Assembly (NCBI GenBank): GCA_052033715.1
Contig: JBPOJJ010000002.1
Location: 94,408-158,407 of the forward strand
Reading direction: 5' to 3'
Length of the DNA stretch: 64,000 nt
From: Patescibacteria group bacterium
GTDB taxonomy: Bacteria; Patescibacteriota; Minisyncoccia; Phycocordibacterales; CSBR16-119
A program made the position numbers and the translations under genes. Of this stretch, positions 24,229 through 39,162 are shown in pieces. The stretch's first letter is position 1. The number at the start of each line of letters is the position of its first letter. The notes under the pieces are model-generated. The model worked only from the letters and a program-made list of their open reading frames with translations. It searched no databases and was not told where the DNA came from.

Positions 24229-24496
24229 GGAAATATTTTAACATATCCAATGGGGACTCTGTCACGCATAAATTTCCTGACGGAAATTTTGCTTAAGCCC
24301 GTTTTTTAATTTGTGGTCACAAATAAGGACTCGCTCACGAGTTACTAATTCGCTACGCTTATAAGTACTCGCGAGCCCGCCTCGCAGTCGCTGGGGCGAC
24401 ACGGCTGCGACTTTCTCGTCCTGACAGAGGCCAAGCAGTTGGCCTCTTTCCCGGGCACAAAATAAAAAGACTGGCCAAAGCCAGCTTTCTATTTTG

Positions 24497-24578
24497 TGCC
24501 CGGGACAGGACTCGAACCTGCATGCCTTTCGGCGCTACCACCTCAAGGTAGTAAGTCTACCAGTTTCTCCACCCGGGC
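24497..24578 (-). tRNA. tRNA-Leu(GAG): tRNA-Leu (anticodon GAG), long variable arm
   Basis: Reverse complement GCCCGGGTGGAGAAACTGGTAGACTTACTACCTTGAGGTGGTAGCGCCGAAAGGCATGCAGGTTCGAGTCCTGTCCCGGGCA. Anticodon loop TTGAGGT. Confidence 0.75.
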
Positions 24579-24803
24579 ATAAACGCTATTCTAATAGATT
24601 TTTTATAAATTCTCTACCCTCGCCAGATTTTAGCCACTTTTCTTTTTTTCTGGCTTCCAAACGTATGCAAAATATTCCATAGCTTTTGTCTACCAACCTG
24701 CCGGCAGGCAGGTTTCTCCCCCCGGGCTTATGGAAAGATATTATCAGTTTTTTGAAAAAGTGAAAGGTCGCACAGAGATGCGACCTTTCAAAAGAAAACG
24801 AAC

Positions 24804-27722: not shown

Positions 27723-29222
27723 TTATTTAACGTTATAATCTTTTCTGATTTTTTTGACTTCGAGGTCTTCTGCTTCGTCTTTAGCATTCTTCCCTGCTTC
27801 ACCAAGCTTGCGCAAATGTTCATCAGAAAGTTTTAGAAGTTCTGTGGCTTTATTTTCTAAATATTCTGCCGTATTTAATTTTGGATCTTCGAGAACTTCT
27901 TCGAGAAGTGCATGAAGTGTCCAACCAATATGTGGACCGGGTCTTCCCTGCCTGCCGGCAGGCAGGTCCGCCATTTCCATAATTCTATTTCCGTCAATTT
28001 TGAGCATGCCGACGTTTATCGGATCACGCATAACTTCTTCGATCATCGATTCAAATTTGCGAAGTCTGTATGGCTCTTCTTTGGGCCTGCCCATTCCGAC
28101 ACGATCACAAATTCGCAGGTCTATAAGATCCCAAACATTGTCTGCACCGACTTTGGCCACAAGTCTCCTGACCGCCGATAGAGTTATCTGATCCGTGTCA
28201 GAGAAGAACATGTGGTATCGCACAAGTCGAGTAATTTTGTCAGTCAATTCGTTGCCAAATTTCAATCGCTCGCAAATCTTCTTTGTGATTTTTGCTCCGA
28301 CAACATCGTGTCCGTAAAACGTATAATCTTCTTTTTCTTTGGACCATTCTCTGGTCGCAGGTTTCCCAATGTCATGAAAAAGCCCAGCCAGGCGAATGTG
28401 TACTGGCCATTCTTTGTCCGCGGCGTGTTGCATTGTACGGAGATTGTGTTCCCAAACATCGTAAATGTGTTCACCGTTTTGTTCGACGCCGATTCCAATC
28501 TCGAGCTCCGGTGAGATGTATTTCATGATTCCCAATTTCTGCGCCAAAGTAATTCCAATTATTGGTTCGGCCGACATTATCATTTTCAAAAACTCGTCGC
28601 GAATGCGTTCGGCTGAAATATTCGCCAGAAGTTCAACGTTTCTATTCATCGCCATCATCGTATCGTGCTCGATGACAAATCCGTGTTGGGTCGAGAAACG
28701 CACAGCACGAAGAATGCGTAAGGCGTCTTCTTGGAACCGCTCATCGGCGATACCCACAGCTTTGATCATTTTATCTTTGATGGCTTCGAGCCCGTCGTAG
28801 AGATCTACCAGTTCCCCATTCGACGGTCGGTAAGCGATGGCGTTCATGGTAAAGTCGCGACGTTTCAAATCGTCTTCTAGATTTTTGGAAAATTTTACCT
28901 CGTCTGGATGACGATTGTCTGAGTAAGTTGATTCGAGTCGATATGGCGTGACCTCAATAACTTTTAGATTTTCATTTTCGGTAATTTTGTTCTCGACACC
29001 GACGGTGCCAAATTTATTTTCATAAAAAGTGTCCGGGAAAATCTCCTGGATTTGCTCCGGCGTTGCATTGGTCGTCACATCCCAGTCTTTCGGCGTCTTC
29101 CCTGTCAACAAATCGCGAACACACCCGCCGACGATGTAGGCCTCAAAACCAGCCGACTCCAGACCATCAGTCACAATCTTAACTTCCGATGGAATATCGA
29201 AATCTTGTTTCATAAGTAACAT
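27723..29222 (-). CDS. cca: CCA-adding enzyme / tRNA nucleotidyltransferase with HD domain
   Basis: Pol-beta-like head (GGCVRDLLTGKTPKDWDVTT) plus HD motif (LAGLFHDIGKP). C-terminal region carries an in-frame GC-rich palindrome insertion (ADLPAGRQGRPG). Confidence 0.85.
   Translation of the reverse strand: MLLMKQDFDIPSEVKIVTDGLESAGFEAYIVGGCVRDLLTGKTPKDWDVTTNATPEQIQEIFPDTFYENKFGTVGVENKITENENLKVIEVTPYRLESTYSDNRHPDEVKFSKNLEDDLKRRDFTMNAIAYRPSNGELVDLYDGLEAIKDKMIKAVGIADERFQEDALRILRAVRFSTQHGFVIEHDTMMAMNRNVELLANISAERIRDEFLKMIMSAEPIIGITLAQKLGIMKYISPELEIGIGVEQNGEHIYDVWEHNLRTMQHAADKEWPVHIRLAGLFHDIGKPATREWSKEKEDYTFYGHDVVGAKITKKICERLKFGNELTDKITRLVRYHMFFSDTDQITLSAVRRLVAKVGADNVWDLIDLRICDRVGMGRPKEEPYRLRKFESMIEEVMRDPINVGMLKIDGNRIMEMADLPAGRQGRPGPHIGWTLHALLEEVLEDPKLNTAEYLENKATELLKLSDEHLRKLGEAGKNAKDEAEDLEVKKIRKDYNVK
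27947..27966. repeat. GC-rich perfect palindrome CCTGCCTGCCGGCAGGCAGG (in-frame inside cca). Related copies at 24697-24712 (16 nt) and 30264-30285 (22 nt)
   Basis: Three occurrences seen directly. Sharply GC-rich in an AT-rich background. Confidence 0.85.
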
Positions 29223-29258
29223 TCTAGCAAGAAACTCTTAATTTAGACTCTAAATTTG

Positions 29259-29330
29259 TGCACCCAGAGGGATTCGAACCCCCAATAACGGTTCCGAAGA
29301 CCGTCGTGATATCCATTTCACCATGGGTGC
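29259..29330 (-). tRNA. tRNA-Arg(TCG): tRNA-Arg (anticodon TCG)
   Basis: Reverse complement GCACCCATGGTGAAATGGATATCACGACGGTCTTCGGAACCGTTATTGGGGGTTCGAATCCCTCTGGGTGCA. Anticodon loop CTTCGGA. Confidence 0.75.
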
Positions 29331-29490
29331 ATCACCTGTGCGAGTAAGGGTCGGTCACAACTCTTTTGCTCCGCAAAAGGTCGCGACCCCGCCTCGCCCG
29401 TCGCTATTGCGACATGGCTCTGGCTTTCGATTCCCCACGCGAGACACGCAGGTGTCTCGCTTTCACGCACAAAAAGCTTTTAGCTTTTTG

Positions 29491-29561
29491 TGCGAGTAAG
29501 GGGAATCGAACCCCTGCCGTCTGATTGGCAACCAGACGTTCTACCATTAAACTATACTCGC
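29491..29561 (-). tRNA. tRNA-Gly(GCC): tRNA-Gly (anticodon GCC)
   Basis: Reverse complement GCGAGTATAGTTTAATGGTAGAACGTCTGGTTGCCAATCAGACGGCAGGGGTTCGATTCCCCTTACTCGCA. Anticodon loop TTGCCAA. Confidence 0.8.
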
Positions 29562-29641
29562 AATAAACAACACAATATCAATTTTCTCCAACAAATACAA
29601 GAAAGCCCGACTCGCGGGCATCCCTGCTAGTCGGGCTCAAC

Positions 29642-30013
29642 CTATTTCCACCGGTATCCAGTTATGCGGTAAAGTCGGTATTTTAGCCTACTTGTTGATT
29701 CTAGTTTGGTCGAACCCAGAAGTTCATCAAAAACCTCGGGCTTGACCAGACAATCAACTAAACAAACTGTCTCCCCTGCGCACGTCCAGGTGCGAGAAAT
29801 CACTTCGGCAACACCTTGTCCAAGGTCACACGCGGAGATCTGGAAATAGTCCCCTTTGCTTATAACCTCGGGCCAGTTCTCTATTTCGACCTCCACATTC
29901 TCAGGCCGGTCAACTGTGCGAAAGTTTAGGATTGCTTTCATGTTCTGTGTTTTGCTAAACATTAACATCCGGCGTTTTATATAGCAACTATTGTCCCTTA
30001 TCCCCCTACCCAC
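29642..30013 (-). CDS. Hypothetical protein (likely starting at an internal Met, ~100 aa), moderately GC-rich
   Basis: 123 aa ORF. No family recognised. Lies between the tRNA cluster and a repeat-rich intergenic region. Confidence 0.35.
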   Translation of the reverse strand: MGRGIRDNSCYIKRRMLMFSKTQNMKAILNFRTVDRPENVEVEIENWPEVISKGDYFQISACDLGQGVAEVISRTWTCAGETVCLVDCLVKPEVFDELLGSTKLESTSRLKYRLYRITGYRWK

Positions 30014-30308
30014 ATGTTTATCCCCTTTTGTCTTTTAAAATCTAAATACACAAGGTGTTGTAAAATAATGCTTTTTTGACACTGGTCTGTGGATAACCCT
30101 GTTTATAACGTTGATAACTAGTAGTTTTTTACCCTAAAAATGTCCTTTATGAATTAAAAACGTTGACTTATAAGGGTTTTTACCATTTCACATGTAACGT
30201 TTCATGTGAAACGTATTTAAGGCACGTTTATAAGGGTTTTTAAACATCAAGTTGTTACGCATGTCCTGCCTGCCGGCAGGCAGGAACATTTACTTAGTTT
30301 CTGGTATT

Positions 30309-30719
30309 ATGTTATTCATGAAACAATTCACTTCCAAAACCCAGAAGTTGGGTGAAATTGGTGAGAAATTGGCCGTAATGTTTCTCATGAAACATGGATT
30401 TCAGGTTTTGGAGACCAATTACACGAAGAAATGTGGGGAAATAGACATTGTGGCCCAAAAGGGTAAAAATTTACACTTTATTGAGGTTAAAAGCGTTTCC
30501 CGTGTAACGTTAGACGATGTTTCATCAGAAACGTCTGGCTATAGGCCAGAAGAGAATATGCATCCGAAGAAAGTCGAGAGATTCGTCCGAACGGCTGATT
30601 ATTACCTTATGGAGAAGAATGTACCTGATACGATCGAATACCAGATCGATCTAGCTCTCGTCTACATAAACCCGATAAAACGCGCAGGGAAGGTAGTCCT
30701 TATGGAGCAGGTGGTTTAA
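30309..30719 (+). CDS. yraN: YraN/UPF0102-family endonuclease-like protein
   Basis: KLGEIGEKLAVMFLMKHGFQVLETNYTKKCGEIDIVAQKGKNLHFIEVKS matches the UPF0102 core. ORF-track start at 30252 reads through the GC palindrome and is rejected. ATG at 30309 or 30318. Confidence 0.75.
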   Translation: MLFMKQFTSKTQKLGEIGEKLAVMFLMKHGFQVLETNYTKKCGEIDIVAQKGKNLHFIEVKSVSRVTLDDVSSETSGYRPEENMHPKKVERFVRTADYYLMEKNVPDTIEYQIDLALVYINPIKRAGKVVLMEQVV

Positions 30720-30769
30720 AAATTTATTGTTTTTCGAATCTGTTGTGCTAATATAACTTCATTGTTTTA

Positions 30770-30842
30770 CGGGGCGTGGTGTAACGGCTAACATGTCTGT
30801 TTTGGGAACAGATGACTCCGGGTTCGAATCCCGGCGCCCCGA
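30770..30842 (+). tRNA. tRNA-Pro(TGG): tRNA-Pro (anticodon TGG)
   Basis: CGGGGCGTGGTGTAACGGCTAACATGTCTGTTTTGGGAACAGATGACTCCGGGTTCGAATCCCGGCGCCCCGA. 7-bp acceptor stem pairs, anticodon loop TTTGGGA. Confidence 0.8.
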
Positions 30843-31046
30843 CAAGGAAGCGAGCGAGCAAACTGCTTTGCTCGCGTCCGGGATTCGAAAGGCTTTTCCG
30901 TACGAGCGAAGCGAGGTGGAAAAGCACCCGCGGCGGTAGGCCGAGAATCCATAAGAGCGCCCCGACTCAGGAAATCAGAAAAACAGATTCTCCGGAGCCT
31001 AAATGGCTCCGCGACCTGAAAGGAGATGACTTTAGTAATAATAATT

Positions 31047-31117
31047 GCGGGATTAGTTTATCGGTAAAACAACAGTTTTCCAAACTGTGGTGAGGAGTTC
31101 GACTCTCCTATCCCGCA
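31047..31117 (+). tRNA. tRNA-Gly(TCC): tRNA-Gly (anticodon TCC)
   Basis: GCGGGATTAGTTTATCGGTAAAACAACAGTTTTCCAAACTGTGGTGAGGAGTTCGACTCTCCTATCCCGCA. Anticodon stem ACAGT/ACTGT, loop TTTCCAA. Confidence 0.75.
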
Positions 31118-31141
31118 CAAAAAATTTGATATACTCTCTTT

Positions 31142-32146
31142 ATGGAAAATGGACCGAAAATCCGAGTCATAGGGAATGCCGACGAGAATCTAAAAAACCA
31201 ACTAAGGGATGAGATTTTTCAAAACCTCCAACAAAAAGGTGGTTTAAACGCCACTGACCTAGAAAAACTAAAAGGGCTCGAGCAAGAAAAAACAGAAAGG
31301 GAGTTGGCTTTAATAGAATTTGCCGATCAAGAAGTTTCACGCCTTATGGAAGAAGCGGGGCTGGAGTCATACAGCATTCCCAGCGACAACTATCATTTGT
31401 TGCCTTCTGACTTCTATCAGAAACATTTTGGTAAAAATAATAACGCCACGGCAAAAATACCTCGACAAGGAATTATGTTTGATGCGGATACTTTTCGCGA
31501 CAAACCAATATTTTTTGGATCTGTCGCGGTTCACGAGACATTACACCTGAAGTCACACCTATCGATGGAATTAAACGAGACTGAAGGGGAACCAGAACAA
31601 ACACCATACAGAGAAGGAGTAGCGATAAAGGCTCTTCAGCGAGATGGTTTCCATGGAAATTATCATGAACATTTTTCTGGTCTACATGAAGCGATTGTGG
31701 CAGAGACACAGAAAAAACTTTTTGATAAAATGTTGAACTTGCCAGAGCTAGCGACTGAAAAAACCTGGCTTGAATCAAAAGAGGCTAAAGATAAGAGGGC
31801 GGCTATCGCTAAGAGAAAAAAGTTACCTGAAGACACGATAATTTGGGTAGGAAACAATGAAGACGAAAAAGATTGGGAGATGATATCTTATGTCACACAA
31901 AGACAAGTATTAAATTATATCTGCGAAGAAATTTCAAAAGATTTGCCAGAAAAATATCCAACACCAGAGGATGTTTACAAAGAATTTTTAAAAGCACAAT
32001 TTACAGGACACCTAACTTCCATCGCAAGAATAGTTGAAGGAACTTTTGGGGAAGGAAGTTTTAGGATTCTGGGAGAAATGAAAACGACAAAAACTAGTGG
32101 GGAAGAGTATTTGAAGAAGATGAAAGACCTAAGATCGAACAAATAA
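31142..32146 (+). CDS. Hypothetical protein with HExxH zincin-like motif
   Basis: VAVHETLHLKSH contains HETLH (HExxH). 334 aa, charged, no signal peptide. Confidence 0.45.
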   Translation: MENGPKIRVIGNADENLKNQLRDEIFQNLQQKGGLNATDLEKLKGLEQEKTERELALIEFADQEVSRLMEEAGLESYSIPSDNYHLLPSDFYQKHFGKNNNATAKIPRQGIMFDADTFRDKPIFFGSVAVHETLHLKSHLSMELNETEGEPEQTPYREGVAIKALQRDGFHGNYHEHFSGLHEAIVAETQKKLFDKMLNLPELATEKTWLESKEAKDKRAAIAKRKKLPEDTIIWVGNNEDEKDWEMISYVTQRQVLNYICEEISKDLPEKYPTPEDVYKEFLKAQFTGHLTSIARIVEGTFGEGSFRILGEMKTTKTSGEEYLKKMKDLRSNK

Positions 32147-35567: not shown

Positions 35568-35792
35568 TTATTTTGGTACTTCATCCACTCCCGACCCTCC
35601 CCAAGGATGACAGCGCGAAATTCGTCGGAAAGAAAGCCAAAAACCCTTGAAAAATCCGTGTTTTTGGAAGGCTTCACGCGAATAGTGTGAACAAGTTGGG
35701 TAAAACCGGCAATTTACGCCAAGAATACGGAAAAGGGGAGAAAGGGTGTGTTGATAGAGCCAAATCAATGAAATAGCTATATATTTCAACAT
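35568..35792 (-). CDS. yidD: Membrane protein insertion efficiency factor YidD
   Basis: YQHTLSPL...[14 protein letters not shown]...[11 protein letters not shown] is the YidD signature. Confidence 0.9.
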
Positions 35793-36112
35793 ATTTTCGC
35801 CTTTTCTAGGATCGCAATAATATCAGCTTCCGTTTCGGCAAACGTTGCTTTTTCGACACCCTTTTTACCAAAAAGTATTATGTAGTATGGGTTTTTGACC
35901 GCTTTGCCGAGCACGGAGTAAGCTCGGCGACGGATTTTGTTCCTAGAAATGGCTGTTTTGGCGACCTTTTTAGCAACCACAACACTAAAATGCGTTGAAT
36001 TTAAAGGGTTTTTCAGGAATCTGAGCGTGAAAAAAGACGAGTTTAAAAACCCGCCTTTTTTCATTACTTTCTCGAAATCTTCCCGATTCATCCTGTTGGT
36101 CTTCGGGATCAT
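35786..36112 (-). CDS. rnpA: RNase P protein component
   Basis: Basic 108 aa protein with RNR motif region ([14 protein letters not shown]). Sits between rpmH and yidD. Confidence 0.85.
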
Positions 36113-36118
36113 GAGAAT

Positions 36119-36281
36119 ATTATTTAGCCGACTTAATACGAGGTTTAGAAACGGTTAGTTTCTTGCGTCCTTTGCGGCGTCGAGCAAGCAAAACCTTCTT
36201 TCCGGAGGTCGTTTTGGATCGAGCACGAAAGCCGTGAGTTTTGGCTCTTTTTTTCTTTTTTGGATTGTATGTTCGTGACAT
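36119..36281 (-). CDS. rpmH: 50S ribosomal protein L34 (with short C-terminal extension)
   Basis: Manual translation [53 protein letters not shown]. Below the ORF-track size cut-off. Confidence 0.8.
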
Positions 36282-36379
36282 GTAGGGGAGTATATACTAG
36301 ACATAAAAATAAATCAATGTCTGGTGCGAAAAAACTTCTATTTAGAACCTGGTTTGTATATAATTTATTCATAAATTTT

Positions 36380-36427
36380 TTATCCACAGCAATCCACAAG
36401 TTGTTAACAATTTTTGAATTATCCACA
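36380..36427. promoter_or_regulatory. DnaA-box cluster (candidate oriC / dnaA promoter region) in the rpmH-dnaA spacer
   Basis: Two perfect TTATCCACA boxes (36380-36388, 36419-36427) and a near-box AATCCACAA (36390-36398). AT-rich flanks (36300-36480). Confidence 0.75.
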
Positions 36428-36480
36428 GTTTCTGAAAATAGATTATAATTCCAAACATTAATCTTTATAAAAATTAAATC

Positions 36481-37830
36481 ATGGTTGATAACAAGCAAAT
36501 TTGGGAAAGTTGTTTAGACGAGATCGAATCCTCTCTTTCCAGAGCCAATTTTGTCACCTGGTTTAAAAACACCAACCTTTCCAAGCAAGAAAACGGCACC
36601 GCCTACATAAGTGTTCCAAATGAATTTGTTAAAGATTGGTTAAACACCAAACACAAGACGACAATATTGGGCCTTCTTAGAAATTACTCTGACGGAATTC
36701 GAAGCGTTGAGTTTGTAATTTCCAAACTTTCAAACAAAAAGCCGGAGGGGGACACGGGCGGCGGAGATGGTTTTGTGGTCAACGAACTTCCACTAAAGAA
36801 TCTCTACGTCGACAAAAAAGATAACTTGAATCCTCGCTACACATTTGACTCTTTTGTGGTTGGCTCTTTTAACGAACTCGCTCACGCCGCCGCTCAATCT
36901 ATAGTCAAAAATCCAGGACACAACTATAATCCCTTCTTCATCTACGGACCAACGGGCCTTGGTAAGACCCACCTTATCCAGGCGATAGGGAACTCAATAA
37001 AAGAAAAGTTCCCAAACAAACAAATTCACTACATTCCTCTCGAGAAATTCGCCATCGATTATGTAAACGCTCTTCGAAACAATAAACCAAACGAATTTAA
37101 GCAAAAATACCGCAAATACGATGTCTTGATCATGGACGACGTCCAATTTATCTCTAACAAAGAAAAGACCCAGGAGGAGCTCTTCCACCTTTTCAACACC
37201 CTCCACGAAACCCAAAAGCAAATAATCTTCTCCTCGGACAAACACCCAAACCAAATCATCGGCCTTGAAGATCGTCTCAGAACCCGTTTTGGCCAAGGGA
37301 TGATTGTTGACATAACCGAGCCAGATATTGAATCTAGAACAGCAATTATTCGCTCTAAGCTCGACGAAAACAGCCTGACTTTATCAGACGAGGTGGTTGA
37401 GTATATTGCTACGGCCATTTCGGGAAGCGTCCGCGAGCTCGAAGGAAGTTTAAACACAGTAATTTGCCAGATTCAGCTCAAAAAAAGAGACTTGTCGGTT
37501 GTGGAGGTTAAAAAGTTGATAAAAAACAACATCAAGCCAGGTAAAAACGTATCGATTCAGAGTGTGGTCAAGACAATTAGTGACTTCTATGAGGTTGAGG
37601 AGGAAAACATATATGAAAAGACTCGCCGAAAAGAGATTGTCAAAGCCCGACAGCTTATTATGTACATCCTTCGAGAAGACTTCAATATCTCGTACCCATT
37701 AATTGGCCAGAAGCTTGGGGGTAAAGACCACACAACCGTCATCCACTCCTGCCTGAAAATCAAGAACGACCTAAAAGGGGACCAAAAACTTGTTCGAGAC
37801 CTTGAGCAGATACGAATGATGTTTAAATAG
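36481..37830 (+). CDS. dnaA: Chromosomal replication initiator DnaA
   Basis: AAA+ Walker A GPTGLGKTHL, sensor motifs, and C-terminal DNA-binding domain (RQLIMYILRE...GGKDHTTV). Confidence 0.95.
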   Translation: MVDNKQIWESCLDEIESSLSRANFVTWFKNTNLSKQENGTAYISVPNEFVKDWLNTKHKTTILGLLRNYSDGIRSVEFVISKLSNKKPEGDTGGGDGFVVNELPLKNLYVDKKDNLNPRYTFDSFVVGSFNELAHAAAQSIVKNPGHNYNPFFIYGPTGLGKTHLIQAIGNSIKEKFPNKQIHYIPLEKFAIDYVNALRNNKPNEFKQKYRKYDVLIMDDVQFISNKEKTQEELFHLFNTLHETQKQIIFSSDKHPNQIIGLEDRLRTRFGQGMIVDITEPDIESRTAIIRSKLDENSLTLSDEVVEYIATAISGSVRELEGSLNTVICQIQLKKRDLSVVEVKKLIKNNIKPGKNVSIQSVVKTISDFYEVEEENIYEKTRRKEIVKARQLIMYILREDFNISYPLIGQKLGGKDHTTVIHSCLKIKNDLKGDQKLVRDLEQIRMMFK

Positions 37831-38061
37831 TGTTAATAAGTTCTTTAAAAGTAGGTGGAAATTCTTGTGGAATAAAACTAGTAACTTTCAATAAAAAGCC
37901 CTCGCGTTAAAAACCTCGGGGTTGTCGGCGAAAGTTACCTTGTTTTACACACCAGGATTTAGTTGTTTTGTCAGATTTTAAAAGGGCGGATGAGACTTAT
38001 ACACAATATCAACAGGGCTAATAATAATAGTAAATTTTAAAGAGTAATAAAAAAGAAAAAC

Positions 38062-39162
38062 ATGAAAATAGAATGTTCGGTGGAAAAACTAAAAGACGCG
38101 GTTGGTAAGGCAGACAAGATCGTCGGTAAGACCTCCTCTCTAGAGAGCCTTAGGTCTATCCTCTTTATTGCTTCTGGTAATAGTTTGAAAATCCGTTCGA
38201 CAAACCTGTCTCTTGGTTTAGAGATCGAGATTCCGGCCAAAATAGAAGTTGAGGGCGAAGTCGTTGTCTCTGGCGAAGTGATAAACAACACATTGATGAA
38301 TCTTAGTGTTTCGGACAAGACTATACGACTCGAGAAAGTAAACGAAAACCTTTTTTTAAACAACAAGAAAACAGCCATAACAATTAAAAGCATTTCTTCT
38401 GAAGATTTTCCAACAATTCCGACGGTCGAAGGAGCTTCTTTTGAAATCGAAACAGAAAAATTCATAGACGGCATAAAGGCGGTATTTTATAGTTCAGCCA
38501 CAAGCGATATTAAGCCAGAAATTGCCAGTGTATATATATACTCCCAGGAAAACAATATCTTTTTTGTCTCGACCGATTCTTTTCGTTTAGCTGAAAAAAA
38601 TATTAGGACAAAAAAACCAGCAGAAGTCGAAGGTTTAATAATTCCTTTTAAAAATGTTTTAGAAATTATAAAACTTCTCTCGGACACAAAAGGGGACATG
38701 AGGGTTTATTACAACAAGAACCAGATTTCTTTTGTCAGTTCGGGTTTTTATCTAACATCTAGGCTTATCAACGGATCTTTTCCAGACTATCGCCAGATTG
38801 TGCCAAAAGAATACAAAACTCGCGCTGTGCTAATCAAGAAAGATTTTATAGAGGCCATCAGGCTCTCTAATGTCTTCTCAGACAAGTTTAATCAGATAAA
38901 ACTTATCATTGACCCAAAAGCTAAAAAACTCGAGGTCTACGCCCTAAACAAAGATGTAGGTGAAAACAAAACATTTGTTGATGGGGCACTTGAGGGAAAC
39001 GCTGTTGATATGAATTTAAATTACAAATATGTTCTTGATTGCTTCCAGTCCATAAACGAAGATTCTGTTGTGCTTGAAATGAATGAAGTAAACCGGCCGA
39101 TGGTCATAAAAGGCAACGGAGATAAGACGTTTTTATACTTAATTATGCCGATGAATCGCTAA
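38062..39162 (+). CDS. dnaN: DNA polymerase III beta sliding clamp
   Basis: 366 aa, three-domain clamp layout, located immediately after dnaA. Confidence 0.85.
   Translation: MKIECSVEKLKDAVGKADKIVGKTSSLESLRSILFIASGNSLKIRSTNLSLGLEIEIPAKIEVEGEVVVSGEVINNTLMNLSVSDKTIRLEKVNENLFLNNKKTAITIKSISSEDFPTIPTVEGASFEIETEKFIDGIKAVFYSSATSDIKPEIASVYIYSQENNIFFVSTDSFRLAEKNIRTKKPAEVEGLIIPFKNVLEIIKLLSDTKGDMRVYYNKNQISFVSSGFYLTSRLINGSFPDYRQIVPKEYKTRAVLIKKDFIEAIRLSNVFSDKFNQIKLIIDPKAKKLEVYALNKDVGENKTFVDGALEGNAVDMNLNYKYVLDCFQSINEDSVVLEMNEVNRPMVIKGNGDKTFLYLIMPMNR

What the first reader, a model, noticed from the sequence alone, without database searches (positions are those of the whole stretch)
30770..30966. tRNA-Pro followed by a structured ~125 bp module ending in a direct repeat of the tRNA 3' terminus
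Directly after tRNA-Pro comes a perfect 9-bp-stem hairpin (GCGAGCAAA-CTGC-TTTGCTCGC). Next is an inverted partial copy of the tRNA T-arm (CCGGGATTCGAA), and ~70 nt later a direct repeat of the last 10 nt of the tRNA (GCGCCCCGAC at 30834-30843 and 30957-30966). A reverse-complement read of the module also begins with the tRNA 5' acceptor sequence (CGGGGCG). This is the signature of an att-site remnant or a small tRNA-targeting or tRNA-derived element.
Basis: seen in the sequence. Interest (0 to 1): 0.6.

Follow-up and report, generated by a model that had tools for sequence, protein, structure and literature searches.

The report
Decayed tRNA-linked structured insertion element
The stretch after tRNA-Pro is a worn-down copy of an apparently undescribed, protein-less, structured element of about 130-190 bases that sits just behind many different tRNA genes in Patescibacteria and Elusimicrobia, is always followed by a duplicate of that tRNA's last ~19 bases, and is present or absent between close relatives as a mobile element would be.

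Summary
The 9-bp hairpin, the 12-nt inverted T-arm copy and the 10-nt direct repeat are exactly where stated and are far above chance. The module is not unique. The same architecture follows tRNA-Gly(GCC) (29331-29489, minus) and tRNA-Leu(GAG) (~24300-24495, minus) in this window, each built from its own tRNA's sequence. A genome scan and a covariance model found 94 copies in 74 loci of Patescibacteria and Elusimicrobiota, behind tRNAs of 14 amino-acid specificities. The canonical element is a three-way junction (P1-P4) with strong covariation. It ends in ..UGUGAC followed by a copy of the tRNA from T-loop C56 to its 3' end. Nothing in Rfam 15 matches it. Relatives show precise empty sites, tandem and nested copies, and nearly identical cores behind different tRNAs in different phyla. 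No integrase, transposase or reverse transcriptase is linked to it. The tRNA-Pro copy is a relic that has lost helix P4 and part of its repeat. Best reading: a small non-coding, tRNA-3'-end-targeting insertion element whose enzyme and intermediate (RNA or single-stranded DNA) are unknown. The main rival is a host tRNA-operon RNA.

The parts
30770..30843 (+). tRNA-Pro(TGG). The last 19 nt (C56..C74, 30825-30843) are the segment that canonical elements duplicate.
   Evidence: ARAGORN; Rfam tRNA 64.9 bits.
30844..30853 (+). Linker AAGGAAGCGA. Canonical copies carry a terminator-like hairpin plus the complement of the acceptor 3' strand here; both are missing in this copy.
   Evidence: Comparison with the canonical tRNA-Pro modules in L167 and L055.
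30854..30875 (+). P0 hairpin: 9-bp stem, CUGC loop, followed by GU (30876-30877).
   Evidence: I10. The same hairpin type occurs at 29439-29460(-) and 24426-24447(-) only and in many copies elsewhere.
30878..30889 (+). Inverted segment (IR): complement of the T-loop and 3' T-stem. It forms the 5' strand of helix P1.
   Evidence: I3; P1 pairing statistics.
30890..30942 (+). Residual core. Junction AAAG; P2 = GGC (30891-30893) / GCC (30940-30942); P3-like hairpin CUUUUCC (30893-30899) / GGAAAAG (30918-30924), whose loop carries ACGAGCGAAGCGAG (30902-30915). Helix P4 (GGGGUCGCG..UGUGAC) is deleted.
   Evidence: Folding. The motif is shared with L003 Arg, L120 His and others. Model R1 finds no meaningful match to the element here (best 7.5 bits, aligned to the tRNA/IR palindrome). 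Comparison with L167.
30943..30966 (+). Decayed direct repeat of the tRNA 3' part: GAGAATCC (T-loop/T-stem remnant, 3' strand of P1), ATAAGA filler, then GCGCCCCGAC (exact copy of 30834-30843).
   Evidence: (D8).
30967..31031 (+). Former downstream flank of tRNA-Pro: the remnant of an older, different insert. It includes hairpin GGAGCC-UAAAU-GGCUCC and ends in GGAGATGACT, the start of a second partial tRNA-Pro copy.
   Evidence: Homologous to the sequence directly after tRNA-Pro in L001 and L003, where a 31-nt tRNA-Pro copy follows.
31047..31118 (+). tRNA-Gly(TCC). Empty site here; it carries a canonical module in L003.
29331..29489 (-). Canonical family member between tRNA-Gly(GCC) (29490-29561) and tRNA-Arg (29258-29330). 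In order: A/U hairpin, acceptor complement GUGCGUGAA, P0 (29439-29460), IR GGGGAAUCG (29428-29436), P2/P3, P4, UGUGAC, then direct repeat CGACCCUUACUCGCAC (29338-29353).
   Evidence: Model R1 66.7 bits, E 5e-18. MFE fold reproduces the helices, z -6.5. No promoter-like site in the spacer.
24300..24495 (-). Family member behind tRNA-Leu(GAG) (24496-24578). In order: terminator hairpin, GUGCCCGGG, P0 (24426-24447), IR CAGGACGAG, core, then a decayed and rearranged repeat.
   Evidence: Model R1 52.9 bits at 24314-24429.

Best explanation
The tRNA-Pro module is a degenerate copy (helix P4 deleted, repeat partly eroded) of a family of small, non-coding, structured insertion elements that land at the 3' end of tRNA genes.

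Shown:
- A canonical element lies on the tRNA's strand, directly after the tRNA.
- Its order is: usually a terminator-like hairpin; a more or less complete complement of the tRNA's 3' strand, often interrupted by hairpin P0; junction AAAG; P2 (G-N-C/G-N'-C) with a bulged G and tandem GA/GA; variable hairpin P3; GG; and a long hairpin P4 (GGUCGCG..UGUGACC).
- It then continues into a direct copy of the tRNA from T-loop C56 to the gene's end.
- The inverted segment pairs with that copy (P1), closing a three-way junction.

Inferred:
- Insertion duplicates the target segment C56-to-end, either as a target-site duplication or as a displaced native 3' end.
- The folded sense strand, as RNA read through from the tRNA promoter or as single-stranded DNA, is the cis-acting structure recognised by a trans-acting enzyme encoded elsewhere.
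- Loss occurs by recombination between the two repeats, restoring a clean tRNA.
- Whether the intermediate is RNA (SINE-like, target-primed) or DNA (IS200/IS605-like or casposase-like) is not resolved.
- The tRNA-Pro copy is probably inert.
For: 1. Recurrence with cognate flanks. Three copies lie in the window. There are 94 model hits in 74 loci. 70 of them have a same-strand tRNA within 300 nt upstream and 10 lie at locus edges, covering 14 amino-acid specificities.

2. The sequence after UGUGAC copies the upstream tRNA from C56 onwards. It stops at N73/C74 in genes without CCA and at A76 in genes that encode CCA.

3. Structure. 87.6-89.8% of cells are paired, against 69-70% in shuffles. The covariation score is 0.46-0.50 against 0.14-0.15 (0/500 shuffles), and all slid registers collapse. 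P2, P3 and P4 are 97-100% paired with many double changes. Two invariant G.U pairs sit on the tRNA-sense strand.

4. Precise presence or absence between relatives.
- tRNA-Gly(TCC): empty in L001, filled in L003, with the same downstream flank after the repeat.
- tRNA-Arg: empty in the window, filled in L001.
- tRNA-Pro and tRNA-Gly(GCC): filled in the window, empty in L169.
- L005 has no copy at all.

5. Tandem copies occur in L012, L042 and L048, and a nested copy in L167.

6. Cores are 92-97% identical behind different tRNAs in differently classified genomes. Examples are L007 Ser versus L011 Trp-type, and L013 Lys versus L039 Arg including the whole left part.

7. One copy sits next to a protein-gene end that resembles a T-loop (L122).

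8. A canonical tRNA-Pro copy (L167) shares P0, GU and CCGGGAUUCGAAAGGC with the window copy.

9. No Rfam family matches.
Against: - No transposase, integrase, reverse transcriptase or HUH nuclease recurs near the copies. None was found next to the modules in the window.
- No circular or free form was observed.
- Copies that match only the middle of the model (both ends missing) are rare among model hits, which does not favour LINE-like target-primed copying.
- The Gly(GCC) copy has been kept in both the window and L001, with a compensatory change in P0. It must also be transcribed for tRNA-Arg to be expressed, because only 7 nt and no promoter-like site separate them. This fits a host function as well.
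- The inverted segment is often less perfect than the direct repeat, which no simple one-step mechanism explains.
- Near-identity of cores across phyla could partly reflect constraint or MAG mis-binning.
Confidence: 0.55

Rival explanations
1. Host-beneficial tRNA-operon RNA. The element is a spacer or trailer domain of tRNA precursors. It might be a processing, termination or anti-termination device, or a decoy that presents a duplex copy of the tRNA's 3' strand. On this reading it is gained and lost by ordinary recombination and is not mobile in its own right.
For: - Strong structural conservation with conserved unpaired nucleotides.
- Always on the tRNA's strand.
- In the window, tRNA-Arg starts 7 nt after the Gly(GCC) module and no promoter-like site lies between them, so the module is part of the transcript.
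- It is retained in very small genomes, and a compensatory change occurs in P0 between the window and L001.
- The inverted segment can pair either with the tRNA's own 3' end or with the downstream copy, which is a switch-like layout.
Against: - The same tRNA has or lacks it in close relatives, and L005 and L169 lack it at all sites examined.
- Tandem, nested and internally deleted copies exist.
- Direct repeats decay freely, as in the window Gly(GCC), Pro and Leu copies.
- Near-identical cores occur behind unrelated tRNAs in different phyla.
- A 19-nt copy of each tRNA cannot arise by point mutation, so a copying mechanism is still required.
Confidence: 0.25
2. Guide-RNA reading, a special case of mobility. 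The conserved scaffold followed by an 18-21-nt tRNA-derived 3' segment would work like the omega-RNA of TnpB or a type V crRNA. It would direct an RNA-guided nuclease or recombinase to the T-loop-to-3'-end segment of the cognate tRNA gene, with GGTT upstream serving as the adjacent motif.
For: - The layout of scaffold plus an 18-21-nt 3' segment identical to the flanking target is the layout of right-end-derived omega-RNAs (comparison from my own knowledge of the TnpB literature).
- The insertion point immediately 3' of a fixed short motif (..GGTT|CGA..) is what IS200/IS605 elements do.
- The sense strand is the folding strand.
Against: - No TnpB, IscB or TnpA gene is linked to any copy.
- The Rfam IS605-orfB and HEARO families do not match.
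- The intact upstream tRNA carries the same motif and target, so a nuclease would cut its own locus.
- The inverted segment would sequester the start of the guide.
- IS200/IS605 elements do not make direct repeats.
- The only TnpB-like ORF in the window (59997-61415) belongs to a CRISPR mini-locus.
Confidence: 0.1
3. att-site scar. On this reading attL and attR were left behind after an integrase-borne island or prophage was deleted. The tRNA 3' end would be duplicated by site-specific recombination.
For: - A direct repeat of a tRNA 3' segment starting in the T-loop is the classical signature of tRNA-targeting tyrosine integrases (established knowledge).
- An older insert of that kind, with a 31-nt repeat, does lie next to tRNA-Pro in L003, L001 and L006.
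Against: - In 94 copies the interval between the repeats is always about 110-190 nt and is homologous.
- No integrase is present, and no cognate tRNA lies kilobases away.
- No true hit was found in viral contigs.
- Covarying helices and conserved junction nucleotides are not expected in a scar.
Confidence: 0.07

Closest known systems
Integrase-mediated insertion into tRNA genes and their protein-less derivatives (attL/attR duplications, CIME-type elements)
   Same: It targets the 3' part of tRNA genes. The tRNA stays intact. The insert is bounded by a direct repeat of the tRNA 3' segment that begins in the T-loop. Loss restores a clean site.
   Different: No integrase is found anywhere near 94 copies, and no large parent element was seen. 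The interior is a conserved, covarying three-way junction of about 80-100 nt. One family serves at least 14 tRNA specificities with nearly identical cores.
Casposons (Cas1 'casposase' transposons)
   Same: Site-specific insertion at the very 3' end of tRNA genes with an unusually long target duplication. PMC6977970 reports 14-15 bp, with tRNA-Leu and tRNA-Pro as targets.
   Different: In casposons the duplication overlaps only the last 4 bp of the tRNA and extends downstream (PMC6977970). Here it lies inside the tRNA (C56 to the end, 18-21 nt) and its length follows whether CCA is encoded. This element has no terminal inverted repeats and no Cas1 or PolB, and it is two orders of magnitude smaller.
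IS200/IS605 elements, their non-autonomous PATE derivatives and TnpB omega-RNAs
   Same: Strand-specific. The ends are structured hairpins rather than inverted repeats. Insertion is immediately 3' of a short fixed motif. A right-end scaffold is followed by flanking sequence.
   Different: Those elements make no target duplication. They need TnpA or TnpB, which were not found here. The Rfam omega-RNA families do not match.
Integron attC sites / CTX-phage attP (folded single-stranded recombination sites)
   Same: A recombination substrate defined by secondary structure. Sequence conservation is limited to a few positions, and an inverted segment re-creates a duplex copy of the target.
   Different: No IntI or Xer link was shown. 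The target is a tRNA gene. A large conserved junction core is present.
tRNA-linked retroposons (SINE-like elements copied by target-primed reverse transcription)
   Same: Non-coding. It can be transcribed from a tRNA promoter. The 3' junction is precise and the left part is variable. It is flanked by a direct repeat of the target. It has a structured 3' region, as needed for recognition by a reverse transcriptase.
   Different: No bacterial system of this kind is known. No reverse transcriptase was found. There is no A-tail, and few copies match only part of the model.

Membership tests
Any described RNA family (Rfam 15) | Match to a curated covariance model at or near its gathering score | tested here: not met
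   Only tRNAs reach gathering score in the window. E-value scans of the Pro spacer and the canonical Gly(GCC) module give only sub-threshold hits, at most 23 bits, which overlap the tRNAs or are plainly spurious.
   This row refers to the tRNA-Pro copy. Model R1 finds no meaningful match to the element there: the best hit is 7.5 bits and aligns to the tRNA/IR palindrome. P4 is absent and the repeat is interrupted. The copy keeps P0+GU+IR+AAAG+P2, which it shares with the canonical tRNA-Pro copy L167, so it is a derivative and not an intact member. The Gly(GCC) and Leu copies in the window do meet the criterion (66.7 and 52.9 bits).
Tyrosine-integrase att remnant / CIME | Direct repeat of the tRNA 3' segment flanking the insert | tested here: met
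Tyrosine-integrase att remnant / CIME | Related full-length elements with an integrase between the same ends, or an integrase nearby | tested here: not met
   No recurrent integrase in 74 loci. No distant cognate tRNA or large insert. No true viral hits. The one integrase seen (L006 16446-17417) is about 6.5 kb from the nearest module and is not bounded by it.
MITE (DDE-transposon derivative) | Terminal inverted repeats and a short, fixed-length target duplication (2-14 bp) | tested here: not met
   The left ends are unrelated between copies, and the right end UGUGAC has no inverted partner at the left terminus. The repeat is 18-21 nt and is delimited by tRNA landmarks.
Casposon | Cas1-family integrase, terminal inverted repeats, and a 14-15 bp duplication overlapping only the end of the tRNA | tested here: not met
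   Features taken from PMC6977970. Here no Cas1 lies next to any copy and the duplication is internal to the tRNA. The window's cas1 fragment (58803-59531) sits beside a CRISPR array about 28 kb away.
IS200/IS605-type element or TnpB omega-RNA | TnpA/TnpB gene in or next to the element; no target duplication | tested here: not met
   The Rfam IS605-orfB families do not match.
IS110 bridge RNA | A recombinase gene adjacent, and two internal loops each holding guides for two adjacent half-sites | tested here: not met
   No recombinase is present. In well-preserved copies the inverted and direct segments cover the same tRNA positions and pair with each other, rather than addressing adjacent halves.
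Group II intron fragment / retron ncRNA | Domain V/VI or msr-msd signature with an adjacent reverse transcriptase | tested here: not met
   No Rfam Intron_gpII or msr hit. No reverse-transcriptase ORF is linked. The upper part of P4 varies widely in length, unlike domain V.
Mobile element in general | Excised or free intermediate, or insertion polymorphism within one population | not testable with these tools
   Only assembled contigs are available. Presence/absence was shown between related genomes, not within a population.

The most novel reading that the evidence does not exclude
A new class of protein-less mobile element whose only conserved part is a folded three-way-junction nucleic acid. 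The element would use the universally conserved T-loop (..GGTT|CGA..) of any tRNA gene as its landing pad and duplicate the tRNA's 3' segment on entry. It would spread through an RNA or single-stranded-DNA intermediate, handled either by an as yet unidentified or host enzyme or by its own catalytic activity. If so, it would be a bacterial counterpart of tRNA-linked retroposons, or a new structure-guided transposition mechanism, specific to reduced-genome lineages (Patescibacteria, Elusimicrobiota).
Probability: 0.3. Interest if true: 0.9.

Novelty: new variant of a known kind. Interest (0 to 1): 0.72.

Why it matters
Patescibacteria have tiny genomes that are usually described as poor in mobile DNA. 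Here a structured non-coding element occupies several tRNA loci per genome: three of seven tRNAs in this window, and often 2-3 copies per 8 kb elsewhere.

If it is mobile, it has three consequences:
- It defines a new way of targeting tRNA genes without carrying a recombinase gene.
- It offers a natural marker of recent gene flow between phyla of uncultured bacteria.
- It may explain the frequent reshuffling of tRNA gene order seen in these lineages.

If it is instead a host RNA, it is a widespread new tRNA-operon RNA domain whose stem is custom-built from each tRNA.

Either way it is a well-supported new structured family with about 100 sequences and strong covariation. It deserves a curated model and transcript mapping. 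It also affects annotation, because spurious ORFs are called across it (for example 30812-31093 here).

Tried and rejected
- **Known RNA family.** Three Rfam scans found nothing.
- **Antisense pseudo-tRNA.** The minus strand has no T-arm or D-arm, ARAGORN finds nothing, and it folds less well.
- **Hammerhead or other small ribozyme; group II domain V.** There are superficial similarities: GAAA, UGAUGAG-like variants, and a 9-bp lower P4 helix with a CGC/G.U triad and a bulge. Against these, no Rfam hit was found, the P4 upper stem varies widely in length, and the junction order is wrong for a hammerhead. Not pursued further.
- **IS110 bridge RNA.** In the tRNA-Pro copy the inverted and direct segments look adjacent on the target. 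Intact copies show that they overlap and pair with each other, so this was rejected.
- **Prophage or island att region.** The viral scan gave only chance hits in coding sequence, and no large versions exist.
- **Linked protein.** All-against-all clustering of 817 ORFs from 74 loci gave only syntenic housekeeping genes. A LAGLIDADG gene family next to tRNA-Leu(GAG) is not tied to modules. Pfam scans of 30 window ORFs found no transposase near the modules.
- **Closest relatives of the Pro copy.** Contigs of the nearest CCA-enzyme homologues break at the tRNAs. The exact 334-aa neighbour protein was not on record for an exact-sequence contig look-up. One metagenome scan with GTCCGGGATTCGAAAGGC gave 16 chance hits and one true hit, L167.
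- **Target-derived inverted segment.** The idea that it is made at insertion by fold-back copying stays open. It is cognate in many copies (L073, L003 Arg, L058) but poor in others that have a perfect direct repeat.
Full report
**1. Observation**

The window carries tRNA-Pro(TGG) at 30770-30843 and tRNA-Gly(TCC) at 31047-31118, separated by a 203-nt spacer that is richer in G+C than its surroundings.
- the perfect 9-bp hairpin with a CTGC loop (30854-30875);
- the 12-nt reverse complement of the T-loop and 3' T-stem (30878-30889 against 30823-30834);
- the 10-nt direct repeat of the tRNA end (30834-30843 and 30957-30966).

The 10-mer and the 12-mer each occur twice in 64 kb, where 0.09 and 0.02 are expected, and no shuffle reaches two. 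The sense strand of the spacer folds better than its shuffles (z -3.8). The antisense strand does so less clearly (z -1.95). No ORF of note, promoter-like site or terminator-like site explains the spacer.

**2. The module is not unique**

The other six tRNAs of the window were read along with their trailers. Two more modules with the same order of parts appeared, each written in the sequence of its own tRNA.
- Behind tRNA-Gly(GCC), on the minus strand at 29331-29489: a small A/U hairpin; GUGCGUGAA, a near-complement of the acceptor 3' strand; hairpin GCGAGACAC-CUGC-GUGUCUCGC; GU; GGGGAAUCGAA, the complement of that tRNA's T-loop and T-stem; a G+C-rich core; UUGUGAC; and CGACCCUUACUCGCAC, a copy of the tRNA-Gly 3' end.
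- Behind tRNA-Leu(GAG), at about 24300-24495: the same plan.

In the whole window, 9-bp CTGC-loop hairpins followed by GT, and the motif GCGAGGYGG, occur only at these three places. All three are on the tRNA's strand.

**3. Relatives show insertion and loss**

The neighbouring CCA-adding enzyme places the organism in Patescibacteria/Paceibacterota. It also served as an anchor to fetch syntenic loci.

| tRNA site | window | L001 | L003 | L005 | L006 | L169 |
|---|---|---|---|---|---|---|
| Pro | module | none | none | none | none | none (51-nt spacer) |
| Gly(GCC) | module | module | module | none | none | none (46-nt spacer) |
| Arg | none | module | module | none | module | none |
| Gly(TCC) | none | none | module | none | none | none |

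- In L001, tRNA-Gly(TCC) is followed directly by CGCTTAAAAGCG. In L003 a ~160-nt segment (135-nt module plus the repeat) is inserted after ..CCCGCAC. That insert ends in UUGUGAC plus a perfect 19-nt copy of the tRNA (CGACTCTCCTATCCCGCAC), and the same CGCTTAAAAGCG then follows.
- tRNA-Arg is bare in the window, but in L001 it carries a module whose repeat is followed by the window's trailer sequence.
- In the window, the sequence after the second GCGCCCCGAC (30967-31031) is homologous to what follows tRNA-Pro directly in L001 and L003.

The module is therefore an insertion between tRNA-Pro and its former flank.

**4. A large family**

About half of these are chance hits in high-G+C genomes. 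The others are all Patescibacteria (Saccharibacteria, Paceibacteria, Nomura-, Campbell-, Yanofsky- and Berkelbacteria, Minisyncoccia), Elusimicrobiota, or two MAGs labelled Bdellovibrionales and Deltaproteobacteria.

In these hits a tRNA lies 54-211 nt upstream on the same strand. The bases after TGTGAC repeat that tRNA from C56 of the T-loop onwards.

A covariance model built from 30 copies (R1) found 94 copies in 74 loci, often two or three per 8 kb. Of these:
- 70 have a same-strand tRNA within 300 nt upstream;
- 10 lie at a locus edge;
- the remainder are tandem arrays, decayed sites or rare non-tRNA sites.

Fourteen amino-acid specificities are represented. The same pattern gave only chance matches in coding regions of viral contigs.

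**5. Structure**

RNAalifold and explicit pair counts support a three-way junction.
- **P1** pairs the inverted segment with the start of the direct repeat. The inner seven pairs are well kept; the outer ones decay.
- **Junction:** AAAG.
- **P2** is G-N-C/G-N'-C. Its middle pair occurs as CG, AU, GC and UA and is essentially always paired.
- A bulged G and tandem GA/GA follow, a k-turn-like arrangement. This is inferred from sequence only.
- **P3** is a hairpin of variable length.
- **P4**, after GG, is a long hairpin (GGUCGCG..UGUGACC). It has a 9-bp lower helix, a bulge on the 3' strand and a very variable upper stem.

On the 94-sequence alignment, 89.8% of cells pair against 69.2% in shuffles. 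The covariation score is 0.495 against 0.148 (0/500), and every slid register falls to about 40% paired.

Two invariant G.U pairs at the base of P4 lie on the tRNA-sense strand, so that is the strand that folds. G.U pairs are almost absent from the variable part of P4. This may mean that new perfect stems replace old ones, or that the fold matters as DNA. It does not settle whether the functional form is RNA or DNA.

The minimum-energy fold of the window's Gly(GCC) copy reproduces all helices (z -6.5). No Rfam 15 family matches the Pro spacer, the canonical Gly(GCC) copy or anything else in the window except tRNAs. Three full-text searches aimed at such an element found no description of it.

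**6. Boundaries**

The direct repeat always begins at C56, so the junction reads UGUGAC|CGA. It ends at N73 or C74 in genes without CCA and at A76 in genes that encode CCA, giving 18-21 nt. Two readings fit this:
- an insertion at 55|56 that brings a replacement 3' end;
- an insertion at the gene's end that duplicates C56-to-end.

A fixed-length staggered cut fits less well.

Among 23 copies with a perfect or near-perfect direct repeat, the inverted segment matches only about 7.8 of 10 positions over the T-loop and T-stem. Its acceptor part is often degenerate or carries indels. In some copies, however, it is perfect over 16-19 nt (L003 Arg, L073, L058).

Cores are 92-97% identical behind different tRNAs in genomes assigned to different phylum-level groups, for example L007 Ser and L011 Trp-type. 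L013 Lys and L039 Arg share even the whole left part.

Also observed:
- tandem copies in L012, L042 and L048;
- a second core nested 9 nt into the repeat of the first (L167);
- internally deleted copies lacking P2/P3 (L125, L028) or P1;
- one copy fused into the T-arm of a pseudo-tRNA (L107);
- one copy beside a protein-gene end reading GGTCGAAAC (L122).

**7. The tRNA-Pro copy**

Model R1 finds no meaningful match to the element in the Pro spacer (best 7.5 bits, aligned to the tRNA/IR palindrome). A metagenome scan with GTCCGGGATTCGAAAGGC recovered one canonical tRNA-Pro module (L167), and L055 holds another.

The window copy shares with L167:
- the P0 hairpin with its CUGC loop;
- GU;
- CCGGGAUUCGAAAGGC, including the GGC of P2;
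- the matching GCC (30940-30942).

The window copy lacks:
- the terminator-like hairpin and the acceptor complement on its left;
- the whole of P4, so that GCC runs into GAGAAUCC;
- 5 nt of the T-stem in its repeat, replaced by AUAAGA.

Its P3 loop (ACGAGCGAAGCGAG) recurs in other copies such as L003 Arg and L120 His. It is therefore a relic of a canonical tRNA-Pro element, and it is inserted upstream of a still older tRNA-Pro-linked insert.

**8. Mechanism: what is shown and what is inferred**

Shown:
- a recurrent structured element;
- strict linkage and co-orientation with tRNAs;
- a target-matched direct repeat;
- precise empty sites in relatives;
- tandem and nested copies;
- near-identical cores at different targets;
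- no linked protein gene.

Inferred: the element is mobile and non-autonomous, and its folded sense strand is the cis-acting signal.

Three classes of mechanism remain open.

- **(a) RNA-mediated, SINE-like copying.** The element is transcribed with the tRNA. In the window, tRNA-Arg starts 7 nt after the Gly(GCC) module with no promoter-like site between them. The left boundary coincides with the tRNA 3'-processing site, the right junction is precise and the left part is heterogeneous. Against this, no reverse transcriptase was found, and few model hits match only part of the model.
- **(b) Single-stranded-DNA transposition of the IS200/IS605 type.** It is strand-specific, has hairpin ends and inserts 3' of a fixed motif, GGTT. 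However, those elements leave no repeat.
- **(c) A casposase- or integrase-like reaction with long or homologous junctions.** No Cas1, terminal repeats or integrase are linked.

I put 0.55 on [quoted passage not shown]. I put 0.25 on a host-beneficial tRNA-operon RNA, about 0.1 on a guide-RNA version, and 0.07 on an att scar.

**9. Novelty**

The general kind is known: site-specific insertion behind tRNA genes that leaves a repeat of the tRNA end. This element fails the tested defining features of integrase remnants, MITEs, casposons, IS200/IS605 elements and omega-RNAs, bridge RNAs, retrons, group II fragments and every Rfam family. I rate it a new variant of a known kind. I give a 0.3 chance that the mechanism itself is new.

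Noticed in passing
window 58803-61415: A compact CRISPR-Cas locus. It has a cas1 fragment (58803-59531, Pfam Cas_Cas1 E 1e-20, C-terminal part only) and three 39-nt repeats (59553-59591 degenerate, 59624-59662, 59694-59732) with 31-32-nt spacers. A 472-aa ORF (59997-61415) follows, whose only Pfam hit is the TnpB RuvC-like domain OrfB_IS605 (29.3 bits, just under the cutoff). This may be a miniature type V effector in a Patescibacterium.
   Followed up: partly
window 24697-24712, 27947-27966, 30265-30284: The perfect 20-nt palindrome CCTGCCTGCCGGCAGGCAGG occurs at three sites where 0 are expected. One copy lies in frame inside the CCA-adding enzyme gene (..LPAGRQG..). That gene is 7-10 residues longer than its homologues. 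Another lies in the 5' part of the YraN ORF. The palindrome also appears at the end of a module in L108.
   Followed up: partly
window 30967-31031; L003 7558-7651; L001 8391-8480; L006 downstream of 8044: A second, older kind of tRNA-Pro-linked insert. It is about 60 nt long, with hairpin GGAGCC-UAAAU-GGCUCC, and is followed by a 31-nt copy of the tRNA-Pro 3' part from the variable region on. The copy is perfect in L003, degenerate in L001 and L006, and truncated to GGAGATGACT in the window. This one looks like a classical att duplication.
   Followed up: partly
window 29258-31118 versus L001, L003, L005, L006, L169: The order and orientation of the tRNA-Gly(TCC)/tRNA-Pro and tRNA-Gly(GCC)/tRNA-Arg pairs differ between close relatives. 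In the window the order is Pro then Gly(TCC), head-on to replication from the nearby dnaA region. In L001, L003 and L005 it is Gly(TCC) then Pro, co-oriented. The Gly(GCC)/Arg pair is inverted in L003 and L005. The repeated tRNA-end copies may drive these rearrangements.
   Followed up: no
L001 15616-16296; L039 4793-5470: Homologous free-standing LAGLIDADG-type ORFs end 11-13 nt upstream of tRNA-Leu(GAG) in two different genomes. The ORF is absent at the same place in the window and in L003. It is probably a separate homing-endonuclease insertion that targets the 5' flank of that tRNA.
   Followed up: partly
alignments A2/A3; e.g. window 30902-30915, L003 Arg, L030, L113: A GA-rich cap motif (GAGCGAAGCGAG or GCGCGACGGCGCG, flanked by GA..GA) recurs at the tip of either P3 or P4 in different copies, as if it were a movable sub-module. 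G.U pairs are almost absent from the variable part of P4, while two G.U pairs at its base are invariant.
   Followed up: no
L013, L015, L039, L073, L091 (after UGUGACCGA): A sub-family carries an extra ~12 nt (AAGTGTACTCAC or ACATGTACTCAC) between the first CGA and the start of the full direct repeat. This may be the stump of an earlier element's right end, or it may be a sub-family-specific extension.
   Followed up: no
window 31142-32146: A 334-aa ORF with an HExxH-like motif and no Pfam domain has more than 120 homologues in Patescibacteria. It lies between tRNA-Gly(TCC) and the HU gene in the window and in L169, but not in L001 or L003, where a different 93-aa ORF is called on the other strand.
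   Followed up: partly
window 35786-39162: This is a replication-origin neighbourhood: rnpA, yidC and jag on the minus strand, and dnaA (36481-37830) and dnaN (38062-39162) on the plus strand. The tRNA cluster with the three modules therefore lies 5-12 kb from oriC.
   Followed up: no
window 30812-31093 (+), 30748-30927 (-); L001 7784-8065: Open reading frames of 59-93 codons run across the module and the tRNAs, and a comparable small ORF is called as a gene beside the tRNA pair in a public relative (L001 7784-8065, just upstream of tRNA-Gly(TCC)). These are likely annotation artefacts caused by the G+C-rich structured element.
   Followed up: no
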